From a phage, in sequence record PV730301.1: a DNA stretch of 44,881 bases. One strand, given 5' to 3'. Both the position numbers and the translations under genes were made by a program. The notes beneath the pieces were generated by a model. It saw nothing but the letters and a program-made list of their open reading frames with translations, was not told the origin of the DNA and did no database searches. Positions 6,131-42,028 of this stretch are shown one piece after another (position 1 is the stretch's first letter; every line of letters begins with the position of its first letter).

Positions 6131-6160
6131 TTTAAACTCCTTCATTGTTGGTGTAAGTGA

Positions 6161-6189
6161 ATAGTACCCTATTATATTGGGGTGCGCAA
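6161..6189 (-). promoter_or_regulatory. sigma70-like promoter for the Imm/phosphoesterase operon (TTGCGC-17-TACTAT) containing the conserved TGAATAGT..CTATTATA element
   Basis: Hexamers and 17-bp spacing read from the sequence; the 23-mer is identical to 41997..42019. Confidence 0.45.
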
Positions 6190-15702: not shown

Positions 15703-15724
15703 AAGGCCCCGAACGGGGCCTTTT
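15703..15724. terminator. rho-independent terminator after the tailspike
   Basis: GGCCCC-GAAC-GGGGCC hairpin plus TTTT; near-identical to the terminator at 4162..4184. Confidence 0.7.
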
Positions 15725-18907: not shown

Positions 18908-19226
18908 TTCTCAATTCCTTATATTGTTGGTGTGTGTGATTACTATAATAGCCCGCTATTAGGTCGTCAACCTGTTTAAACGAACCAACGACAAAAACAT
19001 TTGCGCCTCGTTTACGCATCCTCTCGTGTTCACGTATTTGGTGCGGGTCTGGCTTCGTGTTTTCATCCTTCTTCACCTCGACGAACCAGACGATGCCGCC
19101 GGGGAGAATTATCAGCAGGTCGGGGGCGCCCACTCTATTTTCGTACGACAATTTGCGTACGAGGCCACCGATGGCCTCGAATCGCTCTTTTGCGTATTTC
19201 TGGATGCGCCCCTCAGGCGTACTCAT
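18891..19226 (-). CDS. VRR-NUC domain nuclease
   Basis: GAPDLLII...FVEVKK pattern typical of VRR-NUC. Confidence 0.65.
   Translation of the reverse strand: MSTPEGRIQKYAKERFEAIGGLVRKLSYENRVGAPDLLIILPGGIVWFVEVKKDENTKPDPHQIREHERMRKRGANVFVVGSFKQVDDLIAGYYSNHTHQQYKELRNETRI
18942..18970 (-). promoter_or_regulatory. sigma70-like promoter (TTGACG-17-TATAGT) with the conserved element, embedded in the 3' end of the VRR-NUC gene
   Basis: Hexamers and spacing read from the sequence; same architecture as 23052..23081 and 26055..26083. Confidence 0.5.
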
Positions 19227-23051: not shown

Positions 23052-23081
23052 ACTATAATAGCTAACTATTCAGGTTGTCAA
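23052..23081 (-). promoter_or_regulatory. sigma70-like promoter (TTGACA-18-TATAGT) with the conserved element
   Basis: Intergenic; hexamers read from the sequence. Confidence 0.5.
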
Positions 23082-25846: not shown

Positions 25847-26022
25847 TATTTGTTCTCCTGTTCGGCGATATTGTTAAGTTCTTTAAGAATGTCTTTCTGC
25901 ATGTTTTCTGGTAAGTATAAGAATGCTTGAGTAATCATGCCTTTAACGCTTCCGCGGCCTTCTAAGATGAAGTTGGGGAACCACACTTTCCAGTTAGCAT
26001 CATAATCTTTACGTTTAGCCAT
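25846..26022 (-). CDS. hypothetical small protein (58 aa)
   Basis: GAGAGGAGAGA RBS; first gene downstream of the early promoter. Confidence 0.45.
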   Translation of the reverse strand: MAKRKDYDANWKVWFPNFILEGRGSVKGMITQAFLYLPENMQKDILKELNNIAEQENK

Positions 26023-26054
26023 TTTGTTTCTCTCCTCTCGTTTAGTATGGGCTG

Positions 26055-26083
26055 ACTATAATAGCAAACTATTCACATGTCAA
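26055..26083 (-). promoter_or_regulatory. sigma70-like early promoter (TTGACA-17-TATAGT) with the conserved element
   Basis: Hexamers read from the sequence; a second weaker copy (TTGATA-17-TAATTA) at about 26099..26127. Confidence 0.5.
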
Positions 26084-26147
26084 TGGGCTTTTCTAAAATA
26101 ATTAATATGGTACTATTCACATATCAACCGACTAAGGAGTAATTGAC

Positions 26148-26363
26148 ATGCAACCATCTGAACTAGGCATCCGCGTAGAACAACGCCGCAAAGAACTCGG
26201 CATCTCCCAGCGCCGTCTGGCTGTCCTGGCTGGTGTTTCCCAGGGCGCAATTAACCAGCTGGCACTTGGAGTAACTCAGGACGTCCGCCCGGCGACGCTG
26301 TTTAAACTGGCGGAAGTGCTGCAAGTAGACGCTAAGTGGCTGGCATTCGGTGAAGGGGCTTAA
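26148..26363 (+). CDS. XRE-family HTH transcriptional regulator (Cro/CI-like)
   Basis: ELGISQRRLAVLAGVSQGAINQLALG helix-turn-helix; AAGGAG RBS; only plus-strand gene within the minus-strand block. Confidence 0.75.
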   Translation: MQPSELGIRVEQRRKELGISQRRLAVLAGVSQGAINQLALGVTQDVRPATLFKLAEVLQVDAKWLAFGEGA

Positions 26364-28680: not shown

Positions 28681-28914
28681 TTATTCCAGGTCTTCTAAAG
28701 TGGCCGTCATTCCGCGAACTTCAGCAACGGCACTATATTTCCCGCCAACATTTTTCACGACACCGGATTTAACCAGTACACGTAACGACCCTTCAATGAT
28801 GGCGGAACTATAGTACTTAAAATAACTACGGCGCAAGTCGATAACGCTGCACGACCCTTTTTTACGTGTTAACGAAACGACCGCCGTAAATACGCGTGAC
28901 TGGAACTCGGTCAT
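28681..28914 (-). CDS. hypothetical protein with C-terminal TLEDLE tail
   Basis: ATGA coupling to the upstream AlpA-like gene. Confidence 0.5.
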   Translation of the reverse strand: MTEFQSRVFTAVVSLTRKKGSCSVIDLRRSYFKYYSSAIIEGSLRVLVKSGVVKNVGGKYSAVAEVRGMTATLEDLE

Positions 28915-29081
28915 TTCACGTTCTCCTTAATCCACGCTTCCACTTTCTCCGGGTCGAACGTACCTGGCTGGCGGCGGCCCATAATGCGAATACAACAATC
29001 GGGGAACTTCCCACTCTTTAACCAGTTATTCAGTGTGCGGCGAGTAACCCCGATACGCTCAGCTACTTCATTCTGTGTCAT
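28911..29081 (-). CDS. AlpA/excisionase-family HTH regulator
   Basis: MTQNEVAERIGVTRRTLNNWLKSGKFP matches the AlpA-type HTH; start placed at ATG 29081. Confidence 0.6.
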   Translation of the reverse strand: MTQNEVAERIGVTRRTLNNWLKSGKFPDCCIRIMGRRQPGTFDPEKVEAWIKENVK

Positions 29082-29113
29082 TCTCAAACCCCCATTATCA
29101 GTTAACGAAACCA

Positions 29114-29142
29114 AGTATACATTGTGAATAATGGGAAATCAA
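29114..29142 (-). promoter_or_regulatory. sigma70-like promoter (TTGATT-17-TATACT) for the AlpA-primase operon
   Basis: Hexamers read from the sequence; spacer carries an ATTATTCACA variant of the conserved element. Confidence 0.45.
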
Positions 29143-29511
29143 ACATAATCGCACCTATTGACATTATGAAAATCTTCGTTTAAGGTGCTTCTGTATCTTA
29201 GTTACTTTGATTCCTGTTCACCTTGTAAGAATGTTTAACCCGTGCGTCAAGCAAAGGGTTAAACACAGGCTTACTGAACATTCGAATTATCGTAACTTTC
29301 CTTCCTTAGTATCTCAGGTTGCCCTGGGCAAGCTCTATTCTCATCGGCAGCTTATCTCTTAAGTATCTGATTTTCTTAATGTGCCGTAGATTCGCAACCG
29401 TAAAAATGTAACGATTATTGGGCAGGCTTAAGGCCTGCCCTTTAGTTACCAAGTAATAAGAATAAAGGCACAACCATCCCTGAAAAATCACAACGGCAAC
29501 GTAACCATCTC

Positions 29512-29540
29512 TTGCACACCCCGACATAATAGGATACTAT
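29512..29540 (+). promoter_or_regulatory. sigma70-like promoter (TTGCAC-17-TACTAT) with the conserved element
   Basis: Hexamers read from the sequence; same architecture at 30871..30899. Confidence 0.5.
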
Positions 29541-29568
29541 TCACTTATCAAAACGAAACCGAGGAGCG

Positions 29569-29766
29569 ATGGTTATGTTTAAGAAGGGTCAATTGGCTAA
29601 AACTAAACGTGGAGGGCAATATGTATTAGTGTTGCAGGACTAGAACGAGTATGACCAGGATAATCTGGTTGACGTATGGGGTCTGGTAAGAAAGAAAACT
29701 GGGTTCGCCTTACGCGATAATTTAGAACTCATCGGCAACAATTTTAAATTCAAAGGGGTGAAGTGA
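29569..29766 (+). pseudogene. small ORF interrupted by an in-frame TAG at 29641 (amber allele, readthrough or sequencing error)
   Basis: GAGGAG RBS; 24 codons, TAG, then 40 more codons ending in TGATG coupling to the next gene. Confidence 0.35.
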
Positions 29767-29969
29767 TGGAAGAATTATTTGAAGAACTGAAACATCATAG
29801 ACTAGAGAAGGTGCATTTCCAGGTAAACAGATACGAGGTTGTTTTGCTAGACGGCCCGACTATTTCTTCCGGGACATGTGGGCTCTTGTTGAAAGTTTTA
29901 CGTGCGCTCCGAACGGCATCGAATCATGATGCTCGTGCCGACGACTCTGAGGGAGGTTGCCGTGAATAA
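29766..29969 (+). CDS. hypothetical protein
   Basis: AGGGGTGA RBS; ORF. Confidence 0.5.
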   Translation: MEELFEELKHHRLEKVHFQVNRYEVVLLDGPTISSGTCGLLLKVLRALRTASNHDARADDSEGGCRE

Positions 29970-30755: not shown

Positions 30756-30790
30756 TACGCTGCTACACAGCAGCGTATCATTTTTCTCAT
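30756..30790 (+). terminator. rho-independent terminator
   Basis: 9-bp stem TACGCTGCT/AGCAGCGTA followed by a T-rich tract. Confidence 0.6.
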
Positions 30791-30870: not shown

Positions 30871-30899
30871 TTGCACACCTGGATATAATAGCCTACTAT
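30871..30899 (+). promoter_or_regulatory. sigma70-like promoter (TTGCAC-17-TACTAT) with the conserved element
   Basis: Hexamers read from the sequence. Confidence 0.5.
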
Positions 30900-30930
30900 T
30901 CATTTACACAAACGAGAGGAGAGACAGAAG

Positions 30931-40056: not shown

Positions 40057-40079
40057 AGCCCCGAAAGGGGCTTTCTTAT
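40057..40079 (+). terminator. terminator-like hairpin (possible attenuator inside the head operon)
   Basis: AGCCCC-GAAA-GGGGCT hairpin followed by TTCTTAT. Confidence 0.45.
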
Positions 40080-41623: not shown

Positions 41624-41651
41624 AAGGCCCCTTACGGGGCCTTAGATTTTT
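41624..41651. terminator. rho-independent terminator between convergent genes
   Basis: AAGGCCCC-TTAC-GGGGCCTT hairpin followed by ATTTTT. Confidence 0.65.
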
Positions 41652-41956: not shown

Positions 41957-41999
41957 TTTAGTAAACCTCTATTTTTATTAAATAACACCGATGTGATGA

Positions 42000-42028
42000 A
42001 TAGTACCCTATTATATTGGTGTCTGCAA
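42000..42028 (-). promoter_or_regulatory. sigma70-like promoter (TTGCAG-17-TACTAT) with the conserved 23-mer
   Basis: Same 23-mer as at 6158..6180. Confidence 0.45.

What the first reader, a model, noticed from the sequence alone, without database searches (positions are those of the whole stretch)
29115..29568. A 450-bp structured non-coding region between divergent early operons (candidate small RNA, origin or regulatory hub)
Seen in sequence: back-to-back divergent promoters (minus TTGATT-17-TATACT at 29114..29142; plus TTGACA-17-TAAGGT at 29158..29186). Downstream on the plus strand are a 9-bp-stem hairpin (29233..29264), a 13-bp palindrome TTGCCCTGGGCAA (29319..29331) and a terminator-like hairpin GGGCAGGC-TTAA-GCCTGCCC followed by TTTAGTT (29420..29446), then the plus-strand promoter at 29512. 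The only ORFs (29231..29362 plus; 29306..29527 minus) lack ribosome-binding sites. Inference: a roughly 250-nt non-coding transcript or a replication origin next to the primase operon.
Basis: partly seen in the sequence, partly recalled or inferred. Interest (0 to 1): 0.5.

Follow-up and report, generated by a model that had tools for sequence, protein, structure and literature searches.

The report
Conserved structured early phage RNA gene
The 450-bp "gap" between the two early operons of this Kagunavirus-like coliphage holds an unannotated gene for a highly folded non-coding RNA, conserved in hundreds of related E. coli and Salmonella phages and matching no described RNA family; its function is still unknown.

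Summary
The window is a Kagunavirus-like (Guernseyvirinae) genome, and about 450 phage records share this gene-free gap. Neither local ORF survives in relatives. The stretch after promoter P1 (TTGACA-17-TAAGGT) folds far better than shuffles (z = -6.1).

Its first 100 nt form a rod-like hairpin (29200-29297). In 30 distinct sequences from two genera, 97% of pair cells pair, against 27-46% when partners are slid. Eighteen of 33 pairs show compensatory changes. There are 45 G·U cells and 2 A·C cells, so the plus-sense strand is the one that folds.

The RNA stretch is 83-87% identical between genera; the neighbouring genes are 67-70%. The element is modular, with 5' and 3' modules shuffled among phages. 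It travels with the adjacent HTH gene, not with the primase, which argues against an origin.

P2 belongs to a genome-wide promoter/operator family (ATAATAG-N4-CTATT, about 10 sites), so P1-RNA-hairpin looks like its own transcription unit. No Rfam family matches.

Verdict: a real, new structured phage RNA of about 255 nt. Whether it acts in trans or as a cis-acting leader is unresolved.

The parts
28911..29081 (-). First gene of the leftward early operon: a 56-aa HTH_17 (excisionase/MerR-like) DNA-binding protein (MTQNEV...). It is co-inherited with the RNA region.
   Evidence: Pfam HTH_17 E = 2e-7; PHROG 'excisionase and transcriptional regulator'. It is 85-90% identical at the protein level (85-87% at the DNA level) in Jerseyviruses that keep this RNA type, and 70-86% in Kagunaviruses with other RNA types. 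The HTH gene is one of 4 early genes in Kagunavirus K1B4 RNA-seq (PMC12645636).
29114..29142 (-). Leftward early promoter P_left: TTGATT-17-TATACT.
   Evidence: Both hexamers and the block ATAATGGGAAATCAA are conserved, nearly invariant, in 34 homologues.
29158..29186 (+). Promoter P1 of the RNA: TTGACA-17-TAAGGT. Predicted start is near G29193.
   Evidence: CACCTATTGACAT is nearly invariant. The -10 hexamer is TAAGGT or TAAGTT in all type-A homologues. Every other allele also has a rightward sigma70-type promoter at this place (TTGACT-17-TAAGCT, TTGACA-17-TAAAAT, TTGAAA-18-TATAAT). The start site is not mapped.
29193..29205 (.). Near-palindrome GTATCTTAGTTAC at the transcript start (perfect GTAACTTCAAGTTAC in Jerseyviruses). 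It is a candidate operator and/or an alternative 5' hairpin.
   Evidence: It is the only copy in the genome. The same 22-24 nt occur inverted and upstream of the promoter in K1G-type loci, which favours a DNA-level site. Function untested.
29200..29297 (+). Domain I: a 98-nt rod-like hairpin of five helices. These are 29200-05/29292-97, 29208-13/29284-89, 29215-20/29275-80, 29225-29/29270-74 and 29232-41/29256-65.
   Evidence: MFE fold. Model R1 and alignment A5. 97.3% of 990 pair cells pair and 18 of 33 pairs show changes on both sides. Covariation score is 0.49 against 0.185 in shuffles (0 of 500 reach it). Slid controls pair in 27-46% of cells. 45 G·U cells against 2 A·C cells. The apical helix has at least 5 unrelated sequence versions, all paired.
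29298..29318 (+). Unpaired, pyrimidine-rich linker UUCCUUCCUUAGUAUCUCAGG, nearly invariant in type A. It contains an anti-Shine-Dalgarno-like CCUUCCUUA and the first UAGUAUCU motif.
   Evidence: Unpaired in the MFE and consensus folds. Conserved columns. Related CC.CCUAAAUAUCU is present in the other alleles. No convincing target was found.
29319..29350 (+). Hairpin II (UUGCC.UGGG.AA / UU.CUCA..GGCAG).
   Evidence: Consensus folds. Only one-sided U·G/C-G and A-U/G·U changes are seen, so the pairing is compatible but not proven. The simple palindrome fold is an alternative.
29353..29388 (+). Core motifs shared by all alleles: UCUCUUAAGUAUCUGAU ... (G/U)UGCCGU(A/G)(A/G)G.
   Evidence: Manual comparison of window, K1G-, L033-, L037- and L019-type sequences. 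Predicted small hairpin 29359-63/29375-79.
29381..29471 (+). 3' module 'W'. Closing helices are GUGCC/GGCAC (29381-85/29467-71) and AUUC/GAAU (29390-93/29460-63). It also has GUAAC/GUUAC (29408-12/29445-49) and a GC-rich hairpin (29420-27/29433-40).
   Evidence: Consensus fold of 24 sequences. One compensatory pair (29427/29433, C-G to U-A in 5 sequences). It is about 95% identical between genera, so helices other than the GC stem are predicted, not proven. A paralogous module 'J' with the same boundary sequences lies in tandem in many Jerseyviruses.
29420..29447 (+). Terminator-like hairpin GGGCAGGC-UUAAG-GCCUGCCC plus UUUAGUU. This is the likely 3' end of a ~255-nt RNA in this phage.
   Evidence: Its U-tract is similar in quality to other intergenic terminator-like sites of this genome (42304, 40057, 44695). 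Hairpins of the J and K1G-type modules lack a U-tract. Termination is not measured.
29452..29505 (+). A-rich tract AGUAAUAAGAAUAAA (29452-66) and conserved block AATCACAACGGCAACGTAAC (29486-29505) between the hairpin and P2.
   Evidence: The block is shared by all Kagunavirus alleles and can pair with the UGCCG motif (L033 fold). Role unknown: RNA 3' extension, UP element or regulator site.
29512..29541 (+). P2: TTGCAC-17-TACTAT, overlapped by the palindrome ATAATAGGATACTATT (29526-41). It is the promoter/operator of the rightward early operon.
   Evidence: The palindrome occurs about 10 times in the genome (20 strand-matches against 2.8 expected; 0 of 100 shuffles reach that), always at promoter-like sites. 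A near-identical copy sits at 30874-30902 behind a terminator.
29575..29766 (+). First rightward gene (63 aa in relatives, PHROG 12538). Here it is interrupted by an in-frame TAG at 29641-43. It marks the right-hand border of the non-coding region.

Best explanation
The region is a gene for a structured non-coding RNA. It represents a new RNA family of Guernseyvirinae phages.

Proposed steps:
1. Host sigma70 RNA polymerase starts at P1, near 29193.
2. The first ~100 nt fold into a 33-bp rod-like hairpin beginning 7 nt from the 5' end.
3. An unpaired, sequence-invariant pyrimidine-rich/UAUCU/UGCCGUAG core follows.
4. A hairpin-rich 3' module follows. In this phage its GC hairpin plus UUUAGUU ends most transcripts at about 29446, giving a ~255-nt RNA.
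5. The rightward early genes have their own operator-controlled promoter (P2) just downstream.

Most likely mechanism (inferred, about 45-50%): the RNA accumulates early as a discrete, nuclease-protected molecule, with a 5' rod and a 3' hairpin. It acts in trans through its conserved single-stranded core, binding a host or phage protein or mRNA. Read-through molecules double as a leader of the right operon.

Shown here: the region is non-coding, it is conserved, the plus-strand fold is supported by covariation, the architecture is modular, and the region is a separate promoter-delimited unit.

Inferred: expression, the 3' end, trans action and the partner. That the element works at the RNA level at all I rate about 0.85.
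For: - **Non-coding.** Both ORFs are broken in close relatives, and annotators leave the gap empty in 12 records.
- **Conserved.** 448 phage records match. RNA-stretch identity between genera is 83-87%, against 67-70% for the primase, p77 and first rightward genes and 72-73% for the promoter spacer.
- **Structure.** The MFE is -81.8 kcal/mol with z = -6.1. In domain I, 97.3% of cells pair, 18 of 33 pairs are compensatory, and slid controls give 27-46%. Other alleles are also structured, with z = -2.0, -4.2 and -2.9.
- **Strand.** 45 G·U cells against 2 A·C cells. The structured part begins right after a conserved rightward promoter in every allele.
- **Own unit.** A hairpin plus U-tract comparable to the genome's other terminators is followed by P2. 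P2 belongs to a repeated promoter/operator class that also restarts transcription after the terminators at 30756 and 40057.
- **Sequence-level constraint on unpaired segments.** The linker and core motifs are kept across alleles.
Against: - No transcript data exist. The one Kagunavirus RNA-seq study counted ORFs only.
- P1's -10 hexamer matches only 3 of 6 consensus positions.
- The U-tract is short. Relatives with only J- or K1G-type 3' modules have no U-tract after the hairpin, so there the RNA must run on into the operon or be cut out.
- The consensus fold closes the 3' module with a helix (29381-85/29467-71) that lies beyond the putative terminator.
- No target or partner was found. The best complementarities of the linker are purine-rich coding stretches, and E. 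coli genomes give no match.
- Domains II and III are too conserved to test by covariation.
Confidence: 0.5

Rival explanations
1. Cis-acting leader. P1 is the main early promoter of the rightward operon. The ~380-nt structured 5' region controls elongation or mRNA fate in cis. Options are attenuation at the hairpin modules, put-like RNA-mediated antitermination, protection from Rho or RNase E, or RNase III processing as in the lambda N leader or T7 R0.3.
For: - In SETP3-type and K1G-type relatives no U-tract follows the hairpin, so P1 transcripts must enter the operon.
- The predicted closing helix and the conserved block lie beyond the hairpin.
- Tandem hairpin modules occur in Jerseyviruses.
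- The 33-bp rod is a plausible RNase III substrate.
- A terminator at 30756-77 lies inside the rightward gene array.
- P2's -10 hexamer is degenerate (CTCTAT) in Shelanagig.
Against: - The operon has its own promoter of a class used about 10 times in the genome. The next unit, after the 30756 terminator, restarts from such a promoter rather than relying on read-through.
- The downstream gene differs between phages carrying the same RNA.
- No second copy of the element lies behind any other promoter, unlike putL/putR.
- The adjacent HTH is too small to be a Q/AlpA-type factor.
Confidence: 0.3
2. Replication origin. Transcription from P1, and/or a hairpin in the displaced plus-sense DNA strand, marks where the neighbouring primase-helicase starts replication.
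For: - The cumulative GC-skew minimum and the lowest local GC (0.41) fall at 29200-29600.
- The site lies beside the primase operon.
- G·T pairs can also form in single-stranded DNA hairpins.
- Short motifs recur (TTAGTWWC four times, GTAAC/GTTAC five times).
Against: - The skew minimum coincides with the switch in gene orientation, so it is uninformative.
- There are no iteron arrays or tandem repeats, and the P4-type iteron TGTTCACC occurs only once.
- The region does not co-vary with the primase. A 96-97% identical primase goes with unalignable regions, while a 55-57% identical primase goes with this same region.
- Structure starts precisely after a conserved promoter in every allele.
Confidence: 0.05
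3. Purely DNA-level control region. Operators for phage regulators lie around divergent promoters, and the transcript is an inert by-product.
For: - The near-palindrome at P1 +1 also occurs inverted upstream of the promoter in K1G-type loci.
- The operator palindrome sits in P2.
- The region is inherited together with the HTH_17 gene.
Against: - DNA-binding sites do not explain 18 compensatory base-pair changes across a 100-nt hairpin, the G·U strand asymmetry, or five unrelated but always self-complementary apical sequences.
- The promoter/operator spacer is less conserved (72-73%) than the transcribed part (83-87%).
Confidence: 0.05
4. A small protein is encoded: 29207/29231-29362 on the plus strand, or 29306-29527 on the minus strand.
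For: ORFs of 51 and 73 codons exist in the window.
Against: - The plus-strand ORF has premature stops in four close relatives (L003, L013, L014, L009), and stops or frameshifts in the other Kagunavirus variants and in all Jerseyviruses.
- The minus-strand ORF is broken in every relative.
- There is no Shine-Dalgarno sequence.
Confidence: 0.02

Closest known systems
Lambda '6S' RNA and the StxS sRNA of Stx phages (the short pR'-tR' transcript; from my own knowledge, Sy et al. 2020 PNAS)
   Same: A constitutive phage promoter is followed by a ~200-250-nt untranslated transcript ending at a hairpin terminator, directly upstream of an operon. The terminated RNA can itself act in trans, and read-through forms the operon leader.
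   Different: The lambda/Stx case depends on a Q antiterminator bound at the promoter, and no Q-like protein is evident here. There is no sequence or Rfam relation. Here the RNA has a covariation-supported 100-nt rod and a modular mosaic build, and it sits at an early rather than a late junction.
HK022 put RNAs (cis-acting RNA antiterminators; own knowledge)
   Same: Both are structured RNAs encoded immediately downstream of an early promoter. In both, helices are conserved by covariation while sequence drifts.
   Different: put is about 70 nt with two adjacent stem-loops and occurs behind both early promoters. Here there is a single 100-nt rod plus further domains, and only one copy per genome. 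No functional test was possible.
RNase III-processed leader hairpins (lambda N leader, T7 R0.3; own knowledge)
   Same: Both are long irregular hairpins with small internal loops in the 5' untranslated part of an early phage transcript.
   Different: Those sites are single hairpins just before a gene. Here an invariant unpaired core and a separate 3' module follow, and another promoter lies before the first gene.
Immunity RNAs of P4 (CI RNA) and P1/P7 (c4) (own knowledge)
   Same: Both are small structured RNAs made from the leader of an early operon, next to a primase or regulator region, with short repeated sequence motifs in the leader.
   Different: Those RNAs act through complementary repeats (seqA/B/C, a'/b') and are cut out by RNase P in temperate elements. 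No complementary repeat set was found here, no tRNA-like fold and no Rfam match. The Jersey-like and K1G-like relatives are described as lytic (own knowledge).

Membership tests
Any described RNA family (Rfam 15) | Covariance-model score at or above the family's gathering threshold | tested here: not met
   No hits over the whole window. Around the region the best hit is E = 2.8 (Hrs12, 19 bits against a gathering score of 70). No hits at E <= 1 in seven loci carrying the other alleles. No tRNA or tmRNA.
Sigma70 promoter (P1) | -35 and -10 hexamers about 17 bp apart, kept in relatives | tested here: met
   TTGACA (6 of 6), 17 bp, TAAGGT (3 of 6, with A2 and T6). Hexamers and spacing are kept in 34 homologues. 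The scanner's 4-of-6 rule excludes it.
Sigma70 promoter (P1) | Mapped transcription start | not testable with these tools
   Public RNA-seq exists for Kagunavirus K1B4 (PRJNA939978 / PRJCA028359) but could not be read here.
Intrinsic terminator | GC-rich hairpin immediately followed by a U-tract | tested here: inconclusive
   The window has an 8-9-bp GC stem plus UUUAGUU, similar to other terminator-like sites in this genome. J-type and K1G-type modules of relatives lack the U-tract.
Hfq-dependent trans-acting sRNA | Terminator hairpin with a long U tail, plus an accessible conserved seed with a conserved target | tested here: inconclusive
   The conserved unpaired linker is present. The U tail is only UUU-AG-UU. 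No specific target was found in the phage genome. The host transcriptome was not searchable.
HK022 put-type antiterminator RNA | Two adjacent stem-loops of about 70 nt, behind each early promoter, acting on RNA polymerase in cis | tested here: not met
   The position after a promoter fits. The architecture differs (one 98-nt rod plus other domains), and there is no second copy in the genome. Activity is not testable.
Lambda-type nut site | boxA (CGCUCUUUA-like) next to a boxB hairpin with a pentaloop | tested here: not met
   GCUCUAUU in the window becomes GCUAUAUU in Jerseyviruses and GUCUAUUG in other alleles. The neighbouring hairpin has a 3-nt loop.
Q/AlpA-type promoter-proximal antitermination | A factor with an RNA-exit-channel ring domain as well as a DNA-binding motif (AlpA residues reach at least 142) | tested here: not met
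   The adjacent protein is 56-60 aa and consists of HTH_17 only. AlpA architecture is taken from PMC9371919.
Iteron-type replication origin | Array of at least 3 direct repeats of ~17-22 bp plus an AT-rich unwinding element, co-varying with the initiator | tested here: not met
   Only short two-copy repeats are found. The P4 iteron TGTTCACC occurs once. There is no co-variation with the primase-helicase.
Protein-coding gene | Open reading frame kept in relatives | tested here: not met
   Stops and frameshifts appear in relatives for both candidate ORFs.
RNase III substrate | At least ~20 bp of coaxial double-stranded RNA, cleaved by RNase III | not testable with these tools
   33 bp in five stacked helices are present. 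Cleavage cannot be assessed in silico.

The most novel reading that the evidence does not exclude
This is a new class of modular phage RNA whose 5' and 3' structural cassettes are swapped between phages like immunity modules. It would act on the host machinery in one of two ways. It could be an RNA decoy or inhibitor of a host defence nuclease or RNA-binding protein. Alternatively it could modify RNA polymerase, put-like, in virulent phages that lack any protein antiterminator. The cassette diversity would then reflect an arms race.
Probability: 0.2. Interest if true: 0.8.

Novelty: new member of a known kind. Interest (0 to 1): 0.55.

Why it matters
Kagunaviruses and Jerseyviruses are among the most frequently isolated E. 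coli and Salmonella phages, and many are candidates for therapy or biocontrol. Every annotation leaves this ~450-bp gap empty.

The gap holds the best-conserved non-coding element of the early region. It has a covariation-proven fold and no relative in Rfam, so hundreds of genomes gain a concrete, testable RNA gene. The early programme of these phages involves something beyond proteins.

The element is also a practical warning: the 'empty' gap is not a neutral insertion site for phage engineering.

The linked finding of a genome-wide operator/promoter palindrome gives a first sketch of how these phages may time transcription using only the host polymerase.

Tried and rejected
- **Rfam.** Gathering and permissive searches of the window and seven loci with other alleles found nothing. 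tRNA/tmRNA search found none.
- **P4-type origin iteron TGTTCACC.** One copy in the region and four in the genome, which is not enriched.
- **The +1 near-palindrome as a genome-wide operator.** It is a single site. AGTATCT is not enriched genome-wide.
- **boxA/nut reading of GCUCUAUU.** Not conserved between alleles.
- **The HTH as an AlpA/Q-like antiterminator.** It is too small and lacks a ring domain.
- **Anti-SD-like linker as a seed.** The best duplexes are purine-rich coding stretches, not ribosome-binding sites.
- **Similarity or complementarity to E. coli genomes.** No match at E <= 10.
- **MFE long-range pairing GGUUGC/GCAACC (29317-22/29394-99).** Not kept in Jerseyviruses.
- **Attenuator-style alternative pairing of CGGCA/UGCCG/GGCA segments.** Only 4-5 bp, and not consistent between modules.
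- **Search for relatives outside Guernseyvirinae.** A metagenome pattern scan was screened with model R1. Only 3 of the 80 loci listed were true hits, all on Kagunavirus-size contigs. A 16-mer scan of viral contigs returned Guernseyvirinae plus chance hits.
- **Literature.** No paper mentions an RNA here.
Full report
**What the window is.**
The window is most similar to Escherichia phage SZH-1: 93% identity over the 901 bases 28900-29800. It belongs with Kagunavirus in the subfamily Guernseyvirinae.

The finding lies at the point where gene orientation switches. To the left, on the minus strand, run three genes:
- a 56-aa HTH_17 protein (28911-29081),
- a 77-aa protein of unknown function,
- a 760-aa primase-helicase with an AAA_25 domain.

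To the right, on the plus strand, run small early genes starting at 29575. The stretch 29100-29580 matches 448 phage records, mostly Salmonella Jerseyviruses and E. coli Kagunaviruses. In all 12 records I opened, annotators left a gap of 450-1000 bp without genes at this place.

**Checking the observation.**

As bare consensus matches the motifs mean little. The scanner finds as many promoter-like and terminator-like sites in shuffled sequence, and P1's -10 hexamer TAAGGT matches only 3 of 6 positions. Comparison with relatives is what makes them real. In 34 distinct homologues:
- the leftward promoter (TTGATT-17-TATACT) keeps its hexamers and spacing,
- P1 does too (TTGACA-17-TAAGGT or TAAGTT),
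- P2 is kept in most (TTGCAC/TTGCGT/TTGCAG-17-TACTAT), although its -10 reads CTCTAT in Shelanagig.

**The region is non-coding.**
- The plus-strand ORF (29207-29362) has premature stops in four close relatives that are 91-95% identical in this region.
- It has stops or frameshifts in the other Kagunavirus variants and in every Jerseyvirus.
- The minus-strand ORF (29306-29527) is broken in every relative.

**It is conserved more strongly than its surroundings.**
Identity between this phage and the Jerseyviruses SETP3 or ER21:

| Segment | DNA identity |
|---|---|
| Primase gene | 67.5% |
| p77 gene | 70% |
| First rightward gene | 67% |
| Spacer holding the divergent promoters | 72-73% |
| HTH gene | 85-87% |
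| Transcribed non-coding stretch | 83-87% |

A recent transfer of one block would not leave the promoter spacer in the middle less conserved. The pattern therefore points to selection on the transcribed part.

**It folds, and the fold is conserved by compensatory change.**
The plus strand 29193-29448 has a minimum free energy of -81.8 kcal/mol, against -54.2 ± 4.5 for shuffles (z = -6.1). The opposite strand scores z = -4.5.

The first 100 nt form one long irregular hairpin of five helices and 33 bp (29200-29297).

I built a covariance model from eight near-identical sequences using this structure. I then aligned 33 homologues to it, 30 of them distinct, from both genera. The results:
- 97.3% of 990 pair cells form standard pairs.
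- Shuffled partners give 79.6%. Partners slid by 1-3 columns give 27-46%.
- 18 of 33 pairs show changes on both sides.
- The covariation score is 0.49 against 0.185 in shuffles (0 of 500 reach it).

The alignment was fitted to the model, which favours the structure. Independent single-sequence folds of every variant give the same rod, however.

The changes are striking:
- UGAUUC/GAAUUA becomes UAAGUUU/AAACUUA.
- UGUUCA/UGAACA becomes GUUUCA/UGAAAC.
- One pair runs A-U, then G·U, then G-C.
- The apical helix exists in at least five unrelated, always self-complementary versions.

G·U cells number 45 against 2 A·C cells. The plus-sense strand is therefore the one that folds. In every allele the fold begins a few bases after a rightward promoter. 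This is the signature of an RNA.

**The rest of the RNA.**
After the rod comes a nearly invariant, unpaired pyrimidine-rich linker (29298-29318, CCUUCCUUAGUAUCU). Next is a second hairpin with the invariant GCUCUAUUCUCAUCGGCAGC (29319-29350). The motifs UAAGUAUCUGAU and GUGCCGUAG follow, and then a 3' module (29381-29471).

In that module, GUGCC/GGCAC and AUUC/GAAU appear to close around a GUAAC/GUUAC-extended GC hairpin (29420-29440). These parts are about 95% identical between genera. Covariation therefore cannot test them. I found one compensatory pair in the GC stem and several one-sided G·U changes.

The GC hairpin is followed by UUUAGUU. This is no worse than other intergenic terminator-like sites in this genome. 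It would give an RNA of about 255 nt.

**A modular, mosaic element.**
Other Kagunaviruses carry different sequence between the HTH gene and P2. The layout is nevertheless the same:
- a sigma70-type promoter,
- 260-300 structured nucleotides (z = -2.0 and -4.2 for two alleles, -2.9 for SETP3),
- the shared motifs UCUAUU, UAA(A/G)UAUCU and UGCCGU(A/G)(A/G)G,
- a GC-rich hairpin, one of them with a UUCG loop,
- the common block AATCACAACGGCAACGTAAC followed by P2.

The 5' and 3' modules recombine freely. The window carries A+W. L007 and L012 carry A+X. SETP3 carries A+J. Many Jerseyviruses carry A+W+J in tandem. L019 pairs its own 5' part with W. Modules W and J share their boundary sequences, which are the predicted closing helices. 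Hairpins of the J and K1G types lack a U-tract, so in those phages the RNA must continue or be processed.

**What it travels with.**
- Kagunaviruses with other alleles have a primase N-terminus 94-98% (mostly 96-97%) identical to the window's. Their HTH is only 70-86% identical, and p77 is replaced.
- Jerseyviruses have a primase only 55-57% identical. They nevertheless keep this RNA type, and their HTH is 85-90% identical.

The element is therefore linked to the HTH gene and its promoter, not to the replication protein. There are also no iterons, and a P4-type iteron occurs only once. The GC-skew minimum simply coincides with the change of gene orientation. Together these points make an origin unlikely.

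**P2 and the logic of the transcription units.**
P2 is overlapped by the palindrome ATAATAGGATACTATT. This motif, ATAATAG-N4-CTATT, gives 20 strand-matches in the genome against 2.8 expected (0 of 100 shuffles reach that). That corresponds to about 10 sites, all promoter-like.
- Class I is TTGCRC-17-TACTAT, at 6160(-), 29512(+), 30874(+) and 41999(-).
- Class II is TTGACA-17-TATAGT, at 18970(-), 23081(-) and 26083(-).

Two copies flank the divergent promoters of a DicA/XRE-like HTH gene (26148-26363). That protein is a natural candidate binder, though this is inference only.

A near-identical copy of P2 restarts transcription 100 bp after the terminator at 30756-77. A weaker copy follows the terminator at 40057. 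By the same logic, P1-RNA-hairpin is a unit of its own placed in front of P2. P1 and P_left lack the palindrome.

P1 instead has a near-palindrome at its start site: GTATCTTAGTTAC here, and a perfect GTAACTTCAAGTTAC in Jerseyviruses. This motif also occurs inverted and upstream of the promoter in K1G-type loci. It may be a second operator.

**How it most likely works.**

Shown:
- A non-coding, conserved, plus-strand RNA structure sits behind a conserved promoter.
- It has invariant unpaired segments.
- It is delimited by a terminator-like hairpin and by the next promoter.

Inferred:
- Host polymerase makes it early. The neighbouring HTH gene is one of four early genes in the only Kagunavirus transcriptome, which did not examine intergenic reads (PMC12645636).
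- The 5' rod and 3' hairpin protect it from nucleases.
- The invariant single-stranded core contacts a partner in trans.

I put this reading at about 0.5. The main rival, at about 0.3, is a cis-acting leader working by attenuation, RNA-mediated antitermination, protection or RNase III processing. It is favoured by relatives whose hairpin lacks a U-tract and by predicted pairing beyond the hairpin. Both could hold together, as with the lambda/Stx pR'-tR' RNA. The remaining readings are an origin (0.05), a DNA-only control region (0.05) and a peptide (0.02).

**Comparison with what is known.**
No Rfam family matches any allele. Four literature searches and the text of a large survey of candidate phage RNAs turned up nothing on this locus.

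By layout the element resembles the lambda 6S/StxS short transcript. By position and covariation it resembles HK022 put RNA. By shape it resembles RNase III leader hairpins. It meets the defining features of none of them (see the membership table). The adjacent HTH cannot be an AlpA/Q-type factor, because AlpA is far larger and carries an RNA-exit-channel ring domain.

**Verdict.**
This is a real feature: a new structured RNA family of a known general kind, phage-encoded early non-coding or leader RNA. Its function is open, and public data could settle its expression at once.

Noticed in passing
window 6158-6175, 18945-18962, 23055-23072, 26058-26075, 26102-26117, 29526-29543, 30885-30902, 41997-42014 (weaker: 30727, 34693, 40075): The palindrome ATAATAG-N4-CTATT is strongly over-represented: 20 strand-matches against 2.8 expected. 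It always overlaps a promoter-like site. There are two registers: TTGCRC-17-TACTAT and TTGACA-17-TATAGT. It looks like the operator of a phage regulator controlling about 10 promoters.
   Followed up: partly
window 26022-26363: A DicA/XRE-like HTH gene (26148-26363, + strand) sits alone against the leftward gene flow. Its divergent promoter region carries two copies of the palindrome (26058, 26102). This is a Cro/CI-like autoregulatory layout in a phage whose relatives are described as lytic.
   Followed up: partly
window 29641-29643: The first rightward early gene (29575-29766; 63 aa in relatives) has an in-frame amber TAG where SZH-1 has GAG, and is otherwise intact. It could be a natural nonsense allele, an amber mutant or a sequencing error.
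   Followed up: yes
L021 1077-1347 (- strand) and other K1G-type loci: The alternative allele of the RNA contains a (CACT)n microsatellite with 3 or 6 copies in different contigs. It lies next to a GGUGCC-UUCG-GGCACC hairpin.
   Followed up: partly
L046, L047, L075, L088-L092 (Jerseyviruses), region homologous to window 29381-29510: Two paralogous 3' hairpin modules lie in tandem. Both are bounded by the same sequences, UGCCG.A.GAUUC ... AAGAAUAAAGGCAC. The joint retains the first bases of a P2-type promoter (TCTCTTG).
   Followed up: partly
window 29193-29209 versus L021 (K1G-type), about 35-60 bp upstream of its promoter: The same ~24-nt segment (CTTYTGTATCTTAGTWACTTTG) is at the transcript start here. 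In K1G-type phages it is inverted and upstream of the promoter, which suggests a movable DNA site or a past inversion.
   Followed up: partly
window 29452-29466: The A-rich tract AGUAAUAAGAAUAAA, five A-R-N triplets, lies right after the hairpin. It is conserved in both W and J modules. It could be an Hfq distal-face-type site if transcribed, or an UP-like element. Untested.
   Followed up: no
window 29340-29349 and 29728-29737: The exact 10-mer CTCATCGGCA occurs once in the RNA and once at the conserved 3' end of the first rightward gene. A related CAACGGCAAC is at 29491. The significance is unknown; it may be a recombination joint.
   Followed up: no
window 15703-15722 and 41624-41643: Nearly the same hairpin, AAGGCCCC-N4-GGGGCCTT, lies at two distant places where gene orientation changes. 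It scores as a terminator-like site on the minus strand at 15703-15722 and on both strands at 41624-41643.
   Followed up: no
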